Source: Candidatus Omnitrophota bacterium
GTDB lineage: Bacteria > Omnitrophota > Gorgyraeia > Gygaellales > Profunditerraquicolaceae
Reading direction: 5' to 3'
Assembly (NCBI GenBank): GCA_040754255.1
Contig: JBFMDA010000001.1
Location: 2,535-66,534, forward strand
DNA: 64,000 nt
Made by a program: the position numbers and the translations under genes. Below, piece by piece: positions 12,927 to 46,440 of this stretch (the stretch's first letter is position 1; the number at the start of each line of letters is the position of its first letter). A model generated the notes under the pieces. That model saw only the letters and a program-made list of their open reading frames with translations. It had not been told where the DNA came from and did not search any database.

Positions 12927-13138
12927 TTCGTATTGCGTACAGCGTACAGCGTACGGCGTAGCGCGTAAAGCCGGTTGTTGGGTTAGGGTGAAGCCATGGA
13001 TCTGGTTATTTGGTAATGTTGTTGGTAAAAAACACGCCAAAGACCTCACCCTAACAACTAGACAATCAACCTGGCCCTTATACCACACACACCGCTTTAC
13101 TCCTTGACCTTACTTAGCCTCGACCTAGGCCTTAACCT
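12927..13138. repeat. composite heptamer-repeat intergenic element: (GCGTACN)n, inverted-repeat core, then (CCTTRAC)n
   Basis: Starts directly after the dnaE stop. GTATTGCGTACAGCGTACAGCGTACGGCGTAGCGCGT, then GTTGTTGGGTTAGGGTGAAG / CCTCACCCTAACAAC inverted pair, then CCTTGACCTTACTTAGCCTCGACCTAGGCCTTAACC. Confidence 0.8.
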
Positions 13139-13163
13139 TTTATAGTATTGAGTACGAAATCTA

Positions 13164-13192
13164 TTGACATCGTAACATTTTGTTGATATTAT
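13164..13192 (+). promoter_or_regulatory. sigma70-like promoter (TTGACA-17-TATTAT) upstream of hup
   Basis: Consensus -35 at 13164..13169 and -10 at 13187..13192, about 40 nt upstream of the hup ATG. Confidence 0.45.
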
Positions 13193-13230
13193 ACTTGCGT
13201 AGTTAATGTGAGAAAAAACGGAGGAAAAAA

Positions 13231-13503
13231 ATGACTAAAAAAGACATCATCTTAAAAATCTCTGACGATACCAACCTGAAACAAACCGATGTAAAGAAAG
13301 TCGTGCAAAAATGTTTTGACTGCATAATAGACGCGCTGGTGCGTGGTGAAAAGATAGAGCTGAGGAATTTCGGCGTCTTTAAGATAAAACAAAGAAGGAG
13401 CCGAACCGGCAGAAACCCGCGCACAGGCCAAGTCGTTCCTGTTCCGCCCCGCAAAGTCGTAGTCTTCAAGCCCGGCCTCGAAATGAAGAAAAAGATAAAA
13501 TAA
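13231..13503 (+). CDS. hup: HU/IHF-family DNA-binding protein
   Basis: 90 aa. RNFGVF and R.GRNPRTG..V DNA-binding arm motifs. Confidence 0.85.
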   Translation: MTKKDIILKISDDTNLKQTDVKKVVQKCFDCIIDALVRGEKIELRNFGVFKIKQRRSRTGRNPRTGQVVPVPPRKVVVFKPGLEMKKKIK

Positions 13504-13506
13504 TCT

Positions 13507-14775
13507 ATGTTTAAGAGAGTAGCCGGAACAAAAGATATCCTGCCTGCGCAAGTCAGCATATGGCAAAGCCTGGAAGCAATCAGCAGGGAAGTATTCAATC
13601 TCTATAATTATAAGGAGATACGCCCGCCGTTGCTGGAGGAATCAGGCTTATTCAACCGCTCGTTGGGCGAGACTGCAGAAATCGTCCAGAAACAGATGTT
13701 TCTCGTAAAAAAAGGGGATGATGAATTCGCGCTCAGGCCTGAAGCTACGGCTTCTATAGTCCGTGCCTATATCGAGAATAACTTTGATAAGTTGCAGTCA
13801 TTTTCGAAATTATATTACATAGGCCCAATGTTTAGACTCGAGCGGCCGCAAAAGGGGAGGCTACGACAATTCCACCATATTGGCTGTGAGGCAATCGGTT
13901 CAAAAGACCCTTATGTAGATGTTGAGGTCATTTCGCTGGCAAATACCCTTCTTGCGCGTTTCTTTATTGATGAGTATGCCCTGCACATAAACAGCCTCGG
14001 CTGTCCGCAGGATAAAAAGAAATTTGCCGACCTCTTACGCGCTGCGCTCAAAGGAAAAGTTGCCCGTTTCTGCGAAGACTGCCAGGCGCGTTATGAGCGC
14101 AATGTATTCAGGATCCTTGATTGTAAAAACGAATCGTGCCGTGGTTTTATTAAGGACCTCGGCCTTACAAACGAACATTTGTGCAAAGAATGCGCGCAGC
14201 ACTTTGCAATAGTCAGGGAAGGGTTGGGTGCGCTGGGCGTTACGTATGAAGTTTCTCCTTTATTAGTCAGGGGCCTTGATTATTATACAGGCACGGTATT
14301 TGAATTTACACACAAGTCGCTTGAGAGCCAACAAGATGCCCTCGGCGCAGGCGGCAGATACGATACCCTTAGCCGGGAGCTTGGCGGGCCGGACAAGGGG
14401 GCATGCGGGTTTGCCTTTGGGGTAGAAAGGCTGTTGTTGGTATGTAAAGAGGAAAAGATTGCCCCCTCGGCCAAGCCGCTTGTTTTTTTAATCCTCCTGG
14501 GAGATGAAGCAAGGCAAAAGGGCGTTAAGGTGCTTAATGATTTGCGCAGCCGCGGAATAGCTGCGGATACAGATTATGAGAGTAAATCCTTAAAAGGCGC
14601 GATGCGCAAGGCAAATGATCTTAATGCCAGGTTTGCGGCGATCCTGGGAGAAGACGAGTTGCGCAAAGGAACAATAAGCCTCAAAGATATGCAGTCGGGC
14701 CAGCAGAGGGAAGTAGGGATTAACGAAATAACACAAATAATATCTAACTCAGGGCCTATGGTCGATGGTCGATAG
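13507..14775 (+). CDS. hisS: histidine--tRNA ligase
   Basis: Class II aaRS motifs (MFRLERPQKGRLRQFHHIG, GGRYD). C-terminal anticodon-binding domain. Confidence 0.9.
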   Translation: MFKRVAGTKDILPAQVSIWQSLEAISREVFNLYNYKEIRPPLLEESGLFNRSLGETAEIVQKQMFLVKKGDDEFALRPEATASIVRAYIENNFDKLQSFSKLYYIGPMFRLERPQKGRLRQFHHIGCEAIGSKDPYVDVEVISLANTLLARFFIDEYALHINSLGCPQDKKKFADLLRAALKGKVARFCEDCQARYERNVFRILDCKNESCRGFIKDLGLTNEHLCKECAQHFAIVREGLGALGVTYEVSPLLVRGLDYYTGTVFEFTHKSLESQQDALGAGGRYDTLSRELGGPDKGACGFAFGVERLLLVCKEEKIAPSAKPLVFLILLGDEARQKGVKVLNDLRSRGIAADTDYESKSLKGAMRKANDLNARFAAILGEDELRKGTISLKDMQSGQQREVGINEITQIISNSGPMVDGR

Positions 14776-14808
14776 TCCATTGACTATAGACCATAGACTA
14801 TCGTCCCT
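14753..14808. repeat. family-B heptamer inverted-repeat element (CTATGGTCGATGGTCGATAGTC / GACTATAGACCATAGACTATCG)
   Basis: Imperfect palindrome built from CTATNGT/GACNATAG heptads. It overlaps the hisS stop codon. Confidence 0.65.
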
Positions 14809-45001: not shown

Positions 45002-45045
45002 CGCACATGAACGCAATACGCTATACGCAATACGCTATACGAAAA
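45002..45045. repeat. (TACGCNA)n run ending TACGAAAAACTAAAGGAG
   Basis: CGCACATGAACGCAATACGCTATACGCAATACGCTATACGAAAAAC. Confidence 0.75.
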
Positions 45046-45064
45046 ACTAAAGGAGACTACAAAA

Positions 45065-45853
45065 ATGGGTAAGATAACTGACGCACTACGCAAAGCCGCC
45101 CAAGAACGCCTCTCGCGCATTGAGAAGCTGGATAAGGCAGAAGATGTAAAATATCAGTTTGTTGCCAAGAAGACGGTTGATTCCAAGTTTGACCCGCGCA
45201 TTGTCACGTTTTACGAGCCAAAATCAACTGTTTCTGAACAATATAGGACATTACGAACCAATCTACAATCCCAGAACCCGAAAAACCCGGTAAGGGCAAT
45301 TACCATAACCAGCTCAACGCATTCGGAAGGAAAAACTATTACTGCAATCAACCTGGCAATTTCCATGGCAAAAGATCTTAACAAAAAACAAATACTGCTA
45401 GTGGATGCTGACTTGCGCCGCGCAAGTATGAGTAAATATTTAGGCGTTAAGGCAGAACTTGGGCTTGCAGACCTAATATCGAACGGAACAAATATGGATG
45501 ATACATTGCTTAATTTGGGGATAGACAACTTAACTTTTCTGCCTGCCGGTAAATCTTCGCATAACCCAGCAGAGTTATTTGCGTCAGATAAACTTCCAAA
45601 ATTGATTTCTCAATTAAAAACCAAATACGACTACCTCATATTTGATACCCCGCCCATAATACCCGTAACCGACGCAGGGCTTCTGGGAGCCCAAACTGAT
45701 GGAGTAATTATGGTTATCCAGGCAGAACGGACCCAGAAGGGAGTAGTCAAGCATAGCGAAGGCCTCCTCAAGCAGGCACAAGCCCGGCTTCTCGGTTACA
45801 TCCTGACCAATATCCAGTATCATATCCCGGGATATATTTATCGCTACCTTTAA
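45065..45853 (+). CDS. BY-kinase-type tyrosine autokinase ATPase domain (CapB/Wzc C-terminal-like)
   Basis: Walker A SEGKT, Walker A' VDADLRR, Walker B LIFDTPP. C-terminal Tyr cluster YHIPGYIYRYL. Confidence 0.7.
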   Translation: MGKITDALRKAAQERLSRIEKLDKAEDVKYQFVAKKTVDSKFDPRIVTFYEPKSTVSEQYRTLRTNLQSQNPKNPVRAITITSSTHSEGKTITAINLAISMAKDLNKKQILLVDADLRRASMSKYLGVKAELGLADLISNGTNMDDTLLNLGIDNLTFLPAGKSSHNPAELFASDKLPKLISQLKTKYDYLIFDTPPIIPVTDAGLLGAQTDGVIMVIQAERTQKGVVKHSEGLLKQAQARLLGYILTNIQYHIPGYIYRYL

Positions 45854-45854
45854 T

Positions 45855-45911
45855 TTTTACTCAATACGCAACGCGCAATACGCTATACGCAATACGCGAT
45901 ACGCAATACGA
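45855..45911. repeat. (TACGCNA)n run ending TACGAAAAA immediately before an ATG
   Basis: CTCAATACGCAACGCGCAATACGCTATACGCAATACGCGATACGCAATACGAAAAA. Confidence 0.75.
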
Positions 45912-45915
45912 AAAA

Positions 45916-46440
45916 ATGAGCAAAACTATAAGCGAACTTAAACGATTACAAGAACACCGCCAAAACGGCAACAGTCACTCTACAAGTGACGCGTCGCAAC
46001 CTATAAACGCTGAACGTCGTGGGCAATACGCAATACGCAATACGCAATACGAAAAACGCCGTACCTACGCCGTACCCAGCGTTATTATGTATCTACTACT
46101 AACGCTCAACTTCGCTCTATCCCTCGGGCTATTGGCTTTATTCTATAGCTCAAGAACCGAACGCCAAACAACTCTAACCCAGCTTAATTCTACAATTCAG
46201 GCTATGGAACTCTCTAACGCAGCCTTACTAAGCTCGTTCACTAAAAAGTTCAATCAAGCGAGCGTCGAGATAGAAAAGGCGTCAAAGAGGACGGAGGAGA
46301 TGGGGGTAACTGTCAAAGAATTAAACAAGGAGCAAGAAGCGCAACGCTTTGCAATTGAAACCCTTACAAAAGCAAAAAATACACTGTTTAATAGAATAAA
46401 TTTATTAGAAGCAAATTTAAATTCTAAAAGTAACGAATAA
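45916..46440 (+). CDS. hypothetical TM/coiled-coil protein containing an in-frame TACGCAA repeat (start ambiguous)
   Basis: ORF 174 aa with an internal GGCAATACGCAATACGCAATACGCAATACGAAAAA at 46017..46054 translated YAIRNTQYEK. A shorter alternative starts at the ATG at 46087 (TM helix plus coiled coil). Confidence 0.4.
   Translation: MSKTISELKRLQEHRQNGNSHSTSDASQPINAERRGQYAIRNTQYEKRRTYAVPSVIMYLLLTLNFALSLGLLALFYSSRTERQTTLTQLNSTIQAMELSNAALLSSFTKKFNQASVEIEKASKRTEEMGVTVKELNKEQEAQRFAIETLTKAKNTLFNRINLLEANLNSKSNE

What the first reader, a model, noticed from the sequence alone, without database searches (positions are those of the whole stretch)
12927..46060. Pervasive family of oriented intergenic elements built from heptanucleotide tandem repeats (GCGTATN / GGTTAAG-CCTTAAC / TACGCNA) around a palindromic core
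At least 15 intergenic regions between 12.9 and 46.1 kb carry the same modular element:
- Coordinates: 12927-13138, 19539-19767, 22288-22410, 26319-26527, 29303-29458, 32208-32293, 34092-34220, 36296-36446, 38008-38050, 38472-38505, 40239-40305, 40790-40868, 45002-45045, 45855-45911, 46017-46054.
- Each has runs of 7-nt units reading GCGTATN on one side and TACGCNA on the other, so they form long imperfect hairpins.
- Some also have runs of GGTTAAG/CCTTAAC units and a shared core containing the hairpin GGTGT(A/T)nACACC.
- The cores at about 19560-19640 and 26400-26480 are reverse complements of each other, so full copies occur in both orientations.

Placement is strikingly regular:
- The GCGTAT arm starts within a few nt of an upstream stop codon.
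- The TACGC arm ends as TACGAAA(A) directly at the RBS or ATG of the next gene (recO, ppdK, GH57, the 34230 lipoprotein, the 40316 gene, the 43997 ATPase, the 45065 kinase, aspS).
- This suggests a transcribed intercistronic structure that also supplies the translation-initiation context.

The architecture recalls REP/MITE elements and cyanobacterial heptamer STRR repeats, but the gene content here is not cyanobacterial.

The elements vanish abruptly in the AT-rich EPS gene block after 46.4 kb.
Basis: seen in the sequence. Interest (0 to 1): 0.75.

Follow-up and report, generated by a model that had tools for sequence, protein, structure and literature searches.

The report
Heptamer-repeat hairpin cassettes filling gene spacers

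Summary
The repeats are real. Period-7 arrays cover 15.6% of intergenic bases against 0.13% of coding bases.

They are not one oriented element. The window holds:
- five copies of a 150-230 nt composite repeat, in both orientations
- simple GCGTATN/TACGCNN hairpins
- lone TACGCNN arrays

Two listed items (38008-38050 and 38472-38505) are the two arms of one hairpin. Its loop carries a PF05635/TIGR02436 four-helix-bundle gene.

In 80 metagenomic loci such genes are typically bracketed by inverted arrays. The period is 7 (sometimes 8), and the repeat sequence differs from locus to locus.

Sister strains (90-96% identical genes) carry unrelated heptamer hairpins, or different copy numbers, at the same spacers. 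A more distant relative has short, empty spacers.

Best reading: these are selfish or neutral hairpin cassettes like rRNA intervening sequences, together with their gene-less derivatives. They evolve by slippage and cassette exchange. They are probably tolerated because the stems are processed or harmless. They are not conserved translation signals.

The heptamer phenomenon is known elsewhere (cyanobacterial STRR, Xanthomonas, Beggiatoa). I did not find the link to PF05635 in the searchable literature.

The parts
9435..9460 (.). Short ATAGTCA heptamer array (GTCAATA/ACCATAG family) in the guaA-dnaE spacer.
   Evidence: TRF; gene identities.
12927..13160 (+). Composite repeat 'family A', plus orientation. 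Order: (NNGCGTA)5 array, long G-rich/C-rich hairpin core, (CCTTAAC)n array, terminal TACGAAA. It is followed by a strong promoter-like site at 13164-13192.
   Evidence: alignment A1; MFE -67.5, z -2.5.
14750..14815 (.). GGTCGAT.../...ATAGACC heptamer hairpin followed by a T-run. It overlaps the hisS stop codon and looks like a terminator.
   Evidence: (MFE -28.9, z -6.1).
19530..19778 (+). Family A copy, plus orientation. The array overlaps the ybeY stop codon. The element ends with TACGAAA at the recO ATG.
   Evidence: (MFE -84, z -8).
22284..22412 (.). GCGTATN array that degenerates into GCGTTAT/GCGCA units, then the junction CGCGGAAAAC and a short CCTTAGCC array. It lies between polX and the real start of apbE.
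   Evidence: the ApbE domain starts at residue 70 of the long ORF; L122 gene call.
26313..26528 (-). Family A copy, minus orientation: (GGTTAAG)n, core, a 44-nt unique piece, then (TACGCNN)4 and TACGAAA. The core is 90% identical to 19573-19730. In sister strains the core is replaced by other hairpins while the outer arrays are kept.
29300..29450 (-). Family A copy, minus orientation, in the proS-ppdK spacer. The sister strains carry the TCTAAAT-type hairpin here.
32205..32298 (.). Simple hairpin (NNGCGTA)3 - loop - (TACGCNN)3 in the ppdK-sigma70 spacer. L121 has a GTCAATA/ACCATAG hairpin at this position.
   Evidence: z -4.6.
33633..33800 (+). 'Family B' hairpin built of TCTAAAT/ATTTAGA heptamers with a 3' tail, upstream of tRNA-Arg. 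There is 1 copy here and at least 5 in sister strain L121.
   Evidence: (alignment A3).
34085..34222 (.). GCGTATN/TACGCNN hairpin without a gene. Its arm plus the junction GCGTATCGCGGAAAA matches the upstream arm of a gene-carrying cassette in L207 at 32 of 37 aligned positions. This suggests an internal-deletion derivative.
   Evidence: (z -6.1).
36290..36448 (-). Family A copy, minus orientation, after the terminator at 36242-36267 and ending at the GH57 start. L121 and L210 carry PF05635 cassettes in this same spacer.
38005..38510 (.). Complete cassette. Arm (NNGCGTA)n at 38008-38050 and arm (TACGCNN)n at 38472-38505 can form a 34-36 bp duplex (about -46 kcal/mol). They enclose the gene listed below.
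38061..38420 (-). Gene for a PF05635 / TIGR02436 four-helix-bundle protein ('23S rRNA intervening sequence protein', Avd-like), lying in the loop of the hairpin.
   Evidence: Pfam 4.7e-40; TIGR02436 1.3e-37; PDB 2GSC 6e-25.
40257..40305 (+). Lone (TACGCNN)6 array plus TACGAAA, abutting the ribosome-binding site of the 40316 gene. The orthologous array in L121 has 4 units.
40790..40868 (.). CCTAAAC/CCTTGAC-type arrays. L121 has a GTCGATA/ACCATAG hairpin at this spacer.
43946..43996 (.). ACCATAG/ACTATAG array ending with TACGAAA at the ATG of the AAA_22 ATPase gene.
45002..45045 (+). Lone TACGCNN array ending in TACGAAAA. In the syntenic locus L207 a PF05635 gene with a downstream TACGC arm sits here.
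45855..45911 (+). Lone TACGCNN array. In L207 a PF05635 cassette with GCGTA/TACGC arms occupies this spacer.
46017..46076 (+). Lone (TACGCAA)4 array followed by two CGCCGTACCTA units. It lies inside a long ORF with no family match, whose real start is probably the ATG near 46088.
   Evidence: sequence and translation.

Best explanation
The intergenic elements are hairpins whose arms are tandem arrays of 7-nt units. They belong to the same class of structure that brackets PF05635/TIGR02436 four-helix-bundle genes, the family first found inside 23S rRNA intervening sequences.

The window holds one complete cassette (arm, gene, arm at 38005-38510). Everything else is gene-less: simple hairpins, nested or composite hairpins, and single surviving arms.

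Shown:
- The arrays change copy number between strains, as expected from replication slippage.
- The inner parts are exchanged or nested between spacers.
- Different families have multiplied in different sister strains.

Inferred:
- These are selfish or near-neutral DNA that fills whatever spacer is available, from the stop codon to the ribosome-binding site.
- They are tolerated because a long RNA stem is either harmless or is cut out by RNase III, as rRNA intervening sequences are. That would leave the flanking cistrons (or tRNAs) intact.
- Selection only filters orientation and sequence next to start codons. This would explain why the surviving arm there is the C/A-rich, unstructured TACGCNN...TACGAAA version.
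- How the cassettes move is unknown. The most likely routes are recombination through the shared arrays or insertion at hairpin apices.
For: (1) Anatomy.
- Period-7 arrays are about 120-fold enriched in spacers.
- The hairpins are far more stable than shuffles.
- The cassette arms can form a 34-36 bp duplex.

(2) The gene link.
- Window 38061-38420(-) is PF05635/TIGR02436.
- L121, L205, L207 (two genes) and L210 carry such genes between heptamer arms.
- In 64 metagenomic loci, the upstream flank aligned against the reverse complement of the downstream flank scores 30 or more in 45. Control maxima were 16-30.
- 61 of 148 flanks show period 7 and 18 show period 8, against 3 of 111 control segments.
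- The arm sequence differs from locus to locus.
- The same arrangement occurs on a Nostoc plasmid.

(3) Gene and arms travel together.
- Relatives of the window protein at 70-76% identity have GCGTA/TACGC-type arms in different gene neighbourhoods.
- Locus pairs with similar arm units have more similar proteins (p=0.0015).

(4) Gene-less derivatives.
- 34092-34220 shares the arm plus junction with a gene-carrying cassette.
- The lone arrays at 45002 and 45855 lie where the syntenic L207 has cassettes.

(5) Turnover.
- At six or more orthologous spacers, sister strains carry unrelated heptamer hairpins.
- One array differs by two units between strains.
- Family A has 5 copies here and none in L121/L122. 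Family B has 1 copy here and at least 5 there.
- L123 has no arrays in 19 kb.
- One hairpin sits nested in the apex of another in L122.

(6) Both orientations occur for the composite repeat.

(7) PF05635 genes also sit between tRNA genes in L138, L150 and L152. These are processed transcripts, as in rRNA.

(8) RNase III excision of rRNA intervening sequences is established knowledge (cited in bioRxiv 10.1101/2024.02.27.582315).
Against: - No transposase, integrase, reverse transcriptase or RAYT is encoded in the window. No target-site duplication was seen, so mobility is inferred from distribution only.
- Only about 1 in 10-20 elements carries the gene.
- None of 120 TACGCNN-array loci from other phyla has a PF05635 gene within 8 kb.
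- RNase III processing is untested.
- The sense strand is not preferentially stabilised by G:U pairs.
- Slippage alone could build arrays in place.
- Some regularities hint at function or constraint. The four lone TACGCNN arrays that abut ribosome-binding sites are all in the sense-unstructured orientation. TACGAAA is retained next to ribosome-binding sites even in L121. All five independent family B sites share one orientation.
Confidence: 0.6

Rival explanations
1. One reading: the elements are functional, transcribed intercistronic RNA structures (processing, stability or termination signals). Their TACGAAA-ending arm supplies the translation-initiation context of the downstream gene.
For: - Elements run from the stop codon to the ribosome-binding site, and TACGAA lies 6-27 nt before eight starts.
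- The four lone TACGCNN arrays that abut ribosome-binding sites are all in the orientation that is unstructured and A/C-rich as sense RNA.
- TACGAAA persists in L121 where the array is gone.
- Some hairpins are followed by T-runs, at 14750-14815 and 38042-38061.
- A similar idea was proposed for TAACTGA repeats in Beggiatoaceae (PMC4679880).
Against: - Sister strains with 90-96% identical genes have unrelated hairpins or different copy numbers at the same sites.
- A relative with the same gene order has no elements.
- The composite repeat occurs in both orientations.
- Several elements lie upstream of promoter-like sites and so outside the downstream transcript: one scan hit at 13164-13192 and two TTGACA-type motifs read in the sequence after 26528 and 38505.
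- The orientation of two-armed hairpins is forced by symmetry.
Confidence: 0.15
2. The arrays are ordinary long simple-sequence repeats generated in place by polymerase slippage, which is known to favour 7-nt units. There is no mobility and no relation to the PF05635 gene beyond chance co-location in spacers.
For: - Copy number varies between orthologous arrays.
- Heptanucleotide repeats are the most abundant long SSR class in many prokaryotes (Mrazek 2007, as summarised in PMC4679880).
- Many different heptamer sequences occur.
Against: - Slippage does not create matched inverted arms.
- Homologous 150-230 nt composite copies at 80-95% identity sit at five or more separate spacers.
- Inverted period-7 or period-8 arrays are strongly enriched around PF05635 genes.
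- The same arm type follows related genes into different neighbourhoods.
Confidence: 0.15
3. The arrays are DNA-level binding sites for a protein that recognises heptad repeats in direct and inverted arrangement. Known examples are the omega repressor/centromere sites of pSM19035 (own knowledge) and SARP heptamer sites.
For: Direct and inverted heptads at 7-bp spacing resemble known cooperative binding arrays (own knowledge; PMC5930380 appeared).
Against: - The heptamer sequence at a given spacer differs between sister strains and between spacers of one genome.
- This does not fit one DNA-binding specificity.
- No candidate regulator gene is linked.
Confidence: 0.05
4. The elements are assembly artefacts of a metagenome-assembled genome.
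For: Repeats can confuse assemblers, and many PF05635 genes lie on very short contigs.
Against: - Orthologous elements are recovered in three independent assemblies with syntenic unique flanks.
- The arrays (50 nt or less) are shorter than the final assembly k-mer suggested by the contig names (k141).
Confidence: 0.01

Closest known systems
Intervening sequences (IVS) of bacterial 23S rRNA that carry a PF05635 ORF (Leptospira, Coxiella and others)
   Same: - A long stem formed by terminal inverted repeats, with a PF05635 four-helix-bundle gene in the loop.
- Sporadic distribution suggesting horizontal spread.
- Residence inside transcripts that are processed.
- Gene-less short versions exist.
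   Different: - Here the cassettes sit in spacers between protein-coding genes and next to tRNA genes, not inside rRNA helices. None of 40 related loci scanned was in rRNA.
- The stems are tandem heptamer arrays.
- RNase III cleavage is not shown.
STRR (short tandemly repeated repetitive) heptamers of heterocystous cyanobacteria
   Same: - Tandem heptanucleotide arrays, largely intergenic, often able to pair as inverted arrays.
- They make intergenic regions highly variable between close strains (own knowledge: Mazel 1990; Jackman and Mulligan 1995).
- Nostoc plasmids show PF05635 genes flanked by heptamer arrays.
   Different: - A different phylum (Omnitrophota) and different unit sequences.
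- The link to PF05635 cassettes and to composite dispersed repeats is not part of the STRR description, as far as I could find.
Other reported heptamer repeats: GGGAATC in Xanthomonas (PMC4692102), TAACTGA in Beggiatoaceae, cyanobacteria and Bacteroidetes (PMC4679880), and heptanucleotide elements in Geobacter metallireducens (PMC2700814)
   Same: - Abundant intergenic heptamer arrays.
- In Xanthomonas, 70-75 convergent (inverted) pairs.
- In Beggiatoaceae, arrays directly upstream of start codons.
- Function unknown in all cases.
- Xanthomonas also supplies the solved PF05635 structure 2GSC.
   Different: - Those studies treat one unit sequence per genome and do not mention PF05635.
- Here several unit types coexist and replace one another at the same sites.
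REP/REPIN elements and MITEs
   Same: Short, hairpin-forming, intergenic, dispersed in both orientations, strain-variable, non-coding copies far outnumbering any coding partner.
   Different: - No RAYT or transposase was found here, and no terminal inverted repeats with target-site duplications.
- The arms are internally periodic.
- The associated gene is a small four-helix-bundle protein with no known catalytic activity.
Small dispersed repeats nested in heptamer arrays of Nostoc (Elhai et al. 2008, own knowledge; cited in PMC3116915)
   Same: Very small elements found embedded in tandem heptamer repeats and nested in one another. Compare the nested hairpins in L122 and the composite family A.
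   Different: Different sequences and a different phylum. I could not read the paper to compare details.

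Membership tests
23S rRNA intervening sequence (IVS) elements | Inserted in a helix of the 23S (or 16S) rRNA gene | tested here: not met
   The window elements lie between protein-coding genes and beside tRNA-Arg. Rfam finds only a tRNA in the window and no rRNA in 40 related PF05635 loci.
23S rRNA intervening sequence (IVS) elements | Terminal inverted repeats that form a long stem | tested here: met
   A 34-36 bp duplex forms between 38008-38050 and 38472-38505. 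45 of 64 related loci have inverted flanks above the controls.
23S rRNA intervening sequence (IVS) elements | Loop may encode a PF05635 protein | tested here: met
   Window 38061-38420(-): PF05635 4.7e-40 and TIGR02436 1.3e-37.
23S rRNA intervening sequence (IVS) elements | Excised from the transcript by RNase III without religation | not testable with these tools
   This needs RNA end mapping or an rnc mutant.
Cyanobacterial STRR | Tandem heptanucleotide units, mostly intergenic | tested here: met
   TRF periods of 7 or 14; 15.6% of intergenic against 0.13% of coding bases.
Cyanobacterial STRR | Occurrence in (heterocystous) cyanobacteria with the canonical STRR unit sequences | tested here: not met
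   The host is Candidatus Omnitrophota. The units are GCGTATN, GGTTAAG, TCTAAAT and GTCAATA types.
REP/REPIN | Cognate RAYT (IS200/IS605-like) transposase, and REP doublets with a conserved 5' tetranucleotide | tested here: inconclusive
   No transposase-like domain turned up among 32 window ORFs scanned against Pfam. The remaining genes of 19.8-40.3 kb were covered through precomputed Pfam hits on their orthologues in L121/L122, and most of the EPS block after 47.8 kb was not scanned. The rest of the genome could not be searched.
MITE | Terminal inverted repeats plus target-site duplication, derived from an autonomous transposon by internal deletion | tested here: inconclusive
   An internal-deletion relationship to the gene-carrying cassette is suggested. 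No target-site duplication was seen and no transposase is known.
Long simple-sequence repeats (Mrazek class, unit 5-11 nt) | Tandem arrays longer than chance, with copy-number polymorphism | tested here: met
   Arrays of 3-7 units; 6 units against 4 at an orthologous site.
CRISPR array | Direct repeats of 20-40 nt separated by unique spacers | tested here: not met
   The units are contiguous 7-mers with no spacers.

The most novel reading that the evidence does not exclude
Inverted heptamer arrays plus a PF05635 (Avd-like) gene form a previously unrecognised, cross-phylum class of mobile hairpin cassette. rRNA intervening sequences would be only the first-noticed members. Many bacterial heptamer repeats (STRR, GGGAATC, TACGCNN and others) would be its gene-less remnants.

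Two features hold in nearly every locus: the 5' arm is G-rich and the 3' arm is C-rich, and the period is 7-8 nt. These would reflect how the arms are made, for example by reiterative extension of both 3' ends at a break followed by joining, with the Avd-like protein as the element's own cofactor.
Probability: 0.2. Interest if true: 0.85.

Novelty: new variant of a known kind. Interest (0 to 1): 0.6.

Why it matters
Tandem heptamer repeats have been catalogued for 35 years in cyanobacteria, Xanthomonas, Beggiatoa and Geobacter without an origin or a function. PF05635/TIGR02436 proteins number in the many thousands and also have no known role outside diversity-generating retroelements.

If the two are parts of one cassette, both questions become testable together:
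- Does the protein bind or act on its own arms?
- Are the stems RNase III sites that let a selfish gene live inside operons, tRNA clusters and rRNA?
- Do the arrays drive cassette exchange between spacers?

There are practical consequences too. These elements break metagenome assemblies, since many PF05635 genes lie on 1-3 kb contigs. They can be mistaken for CRISPR-like arrays. They also make intergenic regions of close strains unalignable.

Tried and rejected
- Exact-protein look-ups of the window's recO and of the 100%-identical PF05635 protein found no contig. The rest of the source genome could not be scanned.
- tblastn and a family HMM found no PF05635 gene within 8 kb of 120 TACGCNN arrays from other phyla. 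The gene is therefore not an obligatory neighbour of every array.
- Rfam gave no match to any element, either at gathering thresholds or at E<=1.
- I tested whether sense RNA is favoured by G:U pairing. The antisense strand is usually equally or more stable, so there is no sign of selection specific to sense RNA.
- I tested whether the arm unit is templated from inside the gene. The unit occurs 6 times inside 33 genes, against 5.6 expected. Not supported.
- PADLOC defence models gave no hit for three PF05635 proteins.
- A strict periodicity threshold (80% or more at lag 7 over 35 nt) missed most arrays, because neighbouring units differ at 2 of 7 positions. I relaxed it and added controls.
- Literature searches for PF05635/TIGR02436 together with heptamers found no paper making the link. 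Elhai 2008 could not be read.
- One broad literature search was wasted on the ambiguous term STRR.
- I rejected CRISPR, terminator-only and DNA-binding-array readings for the reasons given under the rival explanations.

Full report
**1. The observation**

I read the listed intervals and ran Tandem Repeats Finder on the whole window.
- All 15 intervals contain repeat arrays. In 14 the period is 7 or 14; at 40790-40868 it is 6-12.
- Runs of GCGTA or TACGC spaced by 7 nt occur 6 and 10 times respectively, always outside genes.
- With a hand-curated gene map, period-7 arrays cover 764 of 4,896 intergenic bases (15.6%) and 74 of 59,104 coding bases (0.13%).
- The two-armed and composite elements fold far better than shuffled sequence, with z from -2.5 to -8.
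- The cores near 19.6 and 26.4 kb are reverse complements at 90% identity.
- Arms begin 0-12 nt after stop codons, and a TACGAA unit lies 6-27 nt before eight start codons.

The raw observation therefore stands.

**2.

The 15 items are not one element.
- *Family A.* Alignment A1 shows five homologous copies of a 150-230 nt composite repeat. It consists of a GCGTATN array, a long G-rich/C-rich hairpin, and a CCTTAAC array. Two copies are in one orientation (12927, 19530) and three in the other (26313, 29300, 36290).
- *Simple hairpins.* 32205-32298 and 34085-34222 are simple GCGTATN/TACGCNN hairpins.
- *One-armed arrays.* 22284-22412 has only the GCGTATN array. The arrays at 40257, 45002, 45855 and 46017 are TACGCNN arrays with no partner arm.
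- *Other arrays.* 40790-40868 holds only CCTAAAC-type arrays.
- *Families not listed.* A TCTAAAT/ATTTAGA hairpin ('family B') lies at 33633-33800. GTCAATA/ACCATAG-type arrays or hairpins lie at 9435, 14750-14815 and 43946.
- *The 'vanishing' after 46.4 kb.* This reflects a block of overlapping or abutting genes with no spacer longer than 18 nt. The block also has lower G+C.

**3. Orientation**

A hairpin of the form (NNGCGTA)n-loop-(TACGCNN)n reads identically on both strands. So 'GCGTA arm after the stop, TACGC arm before the start' is forced by symmetry and carries no information.

The composite repeat, which is asymmetric, occurs in both orientations relative to the uniformly plus-strand genes.

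Only the one-armed arrays are informative. The four lone TACGCNN arrays all sit just upstream of a start. In that orientation the sense RNA is unstructured (MFE -4 to -14, z about 0), whereas the antisense would fold (-14 to -22). The one-armed array at 22284 has the opposite reading (GCGTATN) but does not abut a ribosome-binding site. Four cases are few, but they fit a simple filter against structure at ribosome-binding sites.

**4. Organism and relatives**

The ppdK product is 99% identical to a protein of a Candidatus Omnitrophota MAG, and 82-85% identical to many others of that phylum. Exact-protein look-ups gave two sister-strain contigs:
- L121, from GCA_028717045.1
- L122, from an ENA assembly

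Both have 90-96% nucleotide identity in genes. More distant relatives are L123, L204 and L205.

**5. Turnover at orthologous spacers**

This is the key comparative result. Between conserved, syntenic genes the sister strains carry different elements.

| Window position | Window | Sister strains |
|---|---|---|
| 26313 | family A | L121 family B; L122 family B with a GTCAATA/ACCATAG hairpin nested in its apex |
| 29300 | family A | L121 and L122 family B |
| 32205 | GCGTA/TACGC hairpin | L121 GTCAATA/ACCATAG hairpin |
| 36290 | family A | L121 a gene-carrying cassette |
| 38005-38510 | gene-carrying cassette | L121 family B |
| 40790 | CCTAAAC arrays | L121 GTCGATA hairpin |
| 40257 | lone array, 6 units | L121 same array, 4 units, otherwise identical flanks |

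- At 26313 the outer GGTTAAG and TACGC arrays are kept in both sister strains while the core differs.
- Family A has five copies here and none in the 31 kb of L121/L122. Family B has one copy here and at least five there.
- More distant relatives show still other units in the proS-ppdK spacer: TAGTTCA in L204 and TGGTTAA in L205.
- L123 has 17-55 nt spacers and no period-7 array in 19 kb.

A conserved regulatory role tied to a given sequence is hard to reconcile with this pattern.

**6. The gene in the loop**

The items 38008-38050 and 38472-38505 are the two arms of one hairpin, able to form a 34-36 bp duplex of about -46 kcal/mol.

Its loop holds a minus-strand gene (38061-38420) for a PF05635 '23S rRNA intervening sequence protein' / TIGR02436 'four helix bundle protein'. 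The supporting scores are Pfam E=4.7e-40, TIGR02436 1.3e-37, weak similarity to DGR Avd, and PDB 2GSC (Xanthomonas XCC0516) at 6e-25.

Other loci carry such genes between arms of other units:
- L121: GTCAATA/ACCATAG arms, in the spacer where the window has family A
- L205: TAGTTAA/TTAACNA arms

**7. Generality of the gene-arm association**

80 loci were kept.
- Among 64 loci with enough flank, the upstream flank aligned to the reverse complement of the downstream flank scores 30 or more in 45. Displaced control flanks averaged about 17.5, with maxima of 16-30.
- Inspection shows tandem arrays whose unit differs from locus to locus. Examples are AGCGTGA, GGTACAG, AAGGTTA, TTAGGGA, GAGTTGT, GGTCAGT and GCTAGTC.
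- With a 28-nt window and 68% or more self-identity, 61 of 148 flanks have period 7, 18 have period 8 and 3 have another period. Among 111 control segments, 3 have period 7.
- The downstream arm is nearly always the C-rich one. For TACGCNN arrays from other phyla, a GCGTA array lies upstream 22 times and downstream once.
- A Nostoc edaphicum plasmid shows (GGAGTAG)n - gene - (TCCCTAC)n. Nostoc PCC 7120 plasmids show (CCTCTGC)n downstream. This ties the pattern to the classic STRR organisms.

**8. Gene and arms as one unit; gene-less derivatives**

- Proteins 70-76% identical to the window's are flanked by GCGTA/TACGC-type (or AATACTC) arms in unrelated neighbourhoods. These include an EPS locus, a position upstream of GH57, and a position next to a RhuM gene.
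- Across 51 loci, pairs with arm units within one mismatch have more similar proteins (median 51.9% against 49.1%, one-sided Mann-Whitney p=0.0015). Eleven of these 46 pairs reach 60% identity or more.
- The gene-less hairpin at 34092-34220 shares its arm and the junction GCGTATCGCGGAAAA (32 of 37 aligned positions) with the upstream arm of the L207 cassette.
- L207/L208 are syntenic with window 43981-45858 and hold PF05635 cassettes exactly where the window has the lone arrays at 45002 and 45855.
- L210 has a GCGTA/TACGC cassette in the spacer where the window retains only a TACGC array plus family A.

I read the gene-less hairpins and lone arrays as decay products or derivatives of such cassettes.

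**9. Wider distribution of the TACGCNN unit**

About one hit would be expected by chance; that estimate is my own arithmetic. The hits are spread over Chloroflexota, Planctomycetota, Kiritimatiellota, Bacteroidota, Calditrichota, Cloacimonadota, Omnitrophota and others. Many show the same hairpin-then-start-codon layout. None has a PF05635 gene within 8 kb, so gene-less arrays predominate there as well.

**10. Mechanism: shown and inferred**

*Shown:*
- periodic inverted arms
- enrichment in spacers
- copy-number change between strains
- replacement and nesting at fixed sites
- strain-specific multiplication of homologous copies
- association and co-inheritance with PF05635 genes
- presence of such genes between tRNA genes (L138, L150, L152)

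*Inferred:*
- The stems act like those of rRNA intervening sequences, which RNase III removes without religation (background). This would let a selfish insert reside in transcribed spacers.
- Arrays grow and shrink by slippage, with 7 nt being the favoured unit (Mrazek 2007, as cited).
- Shared arrays provide homology for cassette exchange between spacers.
- Selection keeps the unstructured arm next to ribosome-binding sites.

*Unknown:*
- the enzyme, if any, that moves cassettes
- the role of the PF05635 protein

No transposase, integrase or reverse transcriptase was found among the 32 window ORFs scanned against Pfam or among the orthologues of the other genes between 19.8 and 40.3 kb; most of the EPS block after 47.8 kb was not scanned. 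The arm unit is not enriched inside the gene.

**11. Comparison with the known**

Heptamer arrays are documented in several groups:
- cyanobacteria (STRR; own knowledge)
- Xanthomonas, with 70-75 inverted GGGAATC pairs (PMC4692102)
- Beggiatoaceae, with TAACTGA arrays upstream of starts (PMC4679880)
- Geobacter (PMC2700814)

PF05635 genes are known from rRNA intervening sequences and as Avd relatives (PMC10053308). My searches found no paper connecting the two.

One large survey lists '23S rRNA IVP' among proteins associated with CRISPR arrays (PMC10910872). The flanking arrays might explain that, but this is my conjecture.

The elements fail the defining location of rRNA IVS and the taxon and units of STRR. 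The REP and MITE criteria could not be met, because no transposase or target duplication was found.

**12. Verdict**

The finding is real and striking, but it is not a single oriented regulatory element. It is a local view of a widespread, poorly understood phenomenon. Heptamer-array hairpins colonise and churn intergenic spacers, and here they are tied to PF05635 cassettes.

I rate it a new variant of a known kind, with interest 0.6. My confidence in the cassette/selfish-DNA reading is about 0.6, and about 0.4 for the RNase III step specifically.

Noticed in passing
window 33866-33882 and 34049-34065: The last 17 nt of tRNA-Arg(CCT) (GATTCCTGCCAGGGGCA) are repeated exactly 183 nt downstream. 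This looks like an att-type scar of an element that once integrated at the tRNA. The sister strain L121 lacks the intervening segment.
   Followed up: partly
window 40316-40780: This ORF encodes a Lys/Pro-rich N-terminus (KPKPKS...) written by 18-nt and CCTAAG-type 6/12/30-nt repeats. These resemble the CCTAAAC/CCTTAAC arrays in the spacer just downstream, so the same repeat type spans coding and non-coding DNA. No Pfam match.
   Followed up: partly
window 44815-44844: A CTCCGAG heptamer array lies inside the coding sequence of the AAA_22 ATPase gene (43997-45001). It is one of only two TRF period-7 arrays lying wholly inside a gene (the other is the 15-nt AACAGGA run at 48342-48356); together with small overlaps at gene ends they make up the 74 coding bases.
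   Followed up: no
window 45916-46440: This 174-aa ORF has no family match and contains a TACGCAA array. The likely real start is the ATG near 46088, just before a hydrophobic segment. That would make 45854-46087 a 234-nt spacer with two direct TACGCNN arrays.
   Followed up: partly
window 38421-38471 (minus strand) and L207 3600-3672: The leaders upstream of related PF05635 genes share TTATACGTCTATTA. In L207 a CCCTCCTT...AAGGAGGG pairing could hide the ribosome-binding site, which suggests the gene has its own expression control.
   Followed up: no
window 38042-38061: A terminator-like hairpin plus T-run on the plus strand sits at the inner edge of the GCGTA arm. It would stop GH57 transcripts before they run antisense through the PF05635 gene.
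   Followed up: no
window 46400-64000: This is a low-G+C (0.32-0.38) block of tightly packed or overlapping genes following Wza/Wzz/tyrosine-kinase-like genes. It is a probable horizontally acquired polysaccharide locus. L207/L208 show the same neighbourhood with methyltransferases, a flippase and glycosyltransferases.
   Followed up: partly
L138 1231-1850; L150 187-906; L152 699-1350: In these loci a PF05635 gene sits between two tRNA genes, that is, inside a tRNA operon spacer.
   Followed up: partly
protein list: Most close homologues of the window's PF05635 protein lie on contigs of only 0.5-3 kb. This is consistent with the flanking repeats breaking short-read assemblies.
   Followed up: no
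L121 4480-4530: One family B copy carries an extra GC-rich mini-palindrome (CCTGCCTGCCGGCAGGCAGG) inserted in its 3' arm. It is another small nested insertion.
   Followed up: no
L121 16208-16888: The sister strain has an HTH_17 gene plus a Fic-domain gene pair in the spacer where the window (41130-41600) has only non-coding sequence. This is a strain-specific insertion unrelated to the repeats.
   Followed up: no
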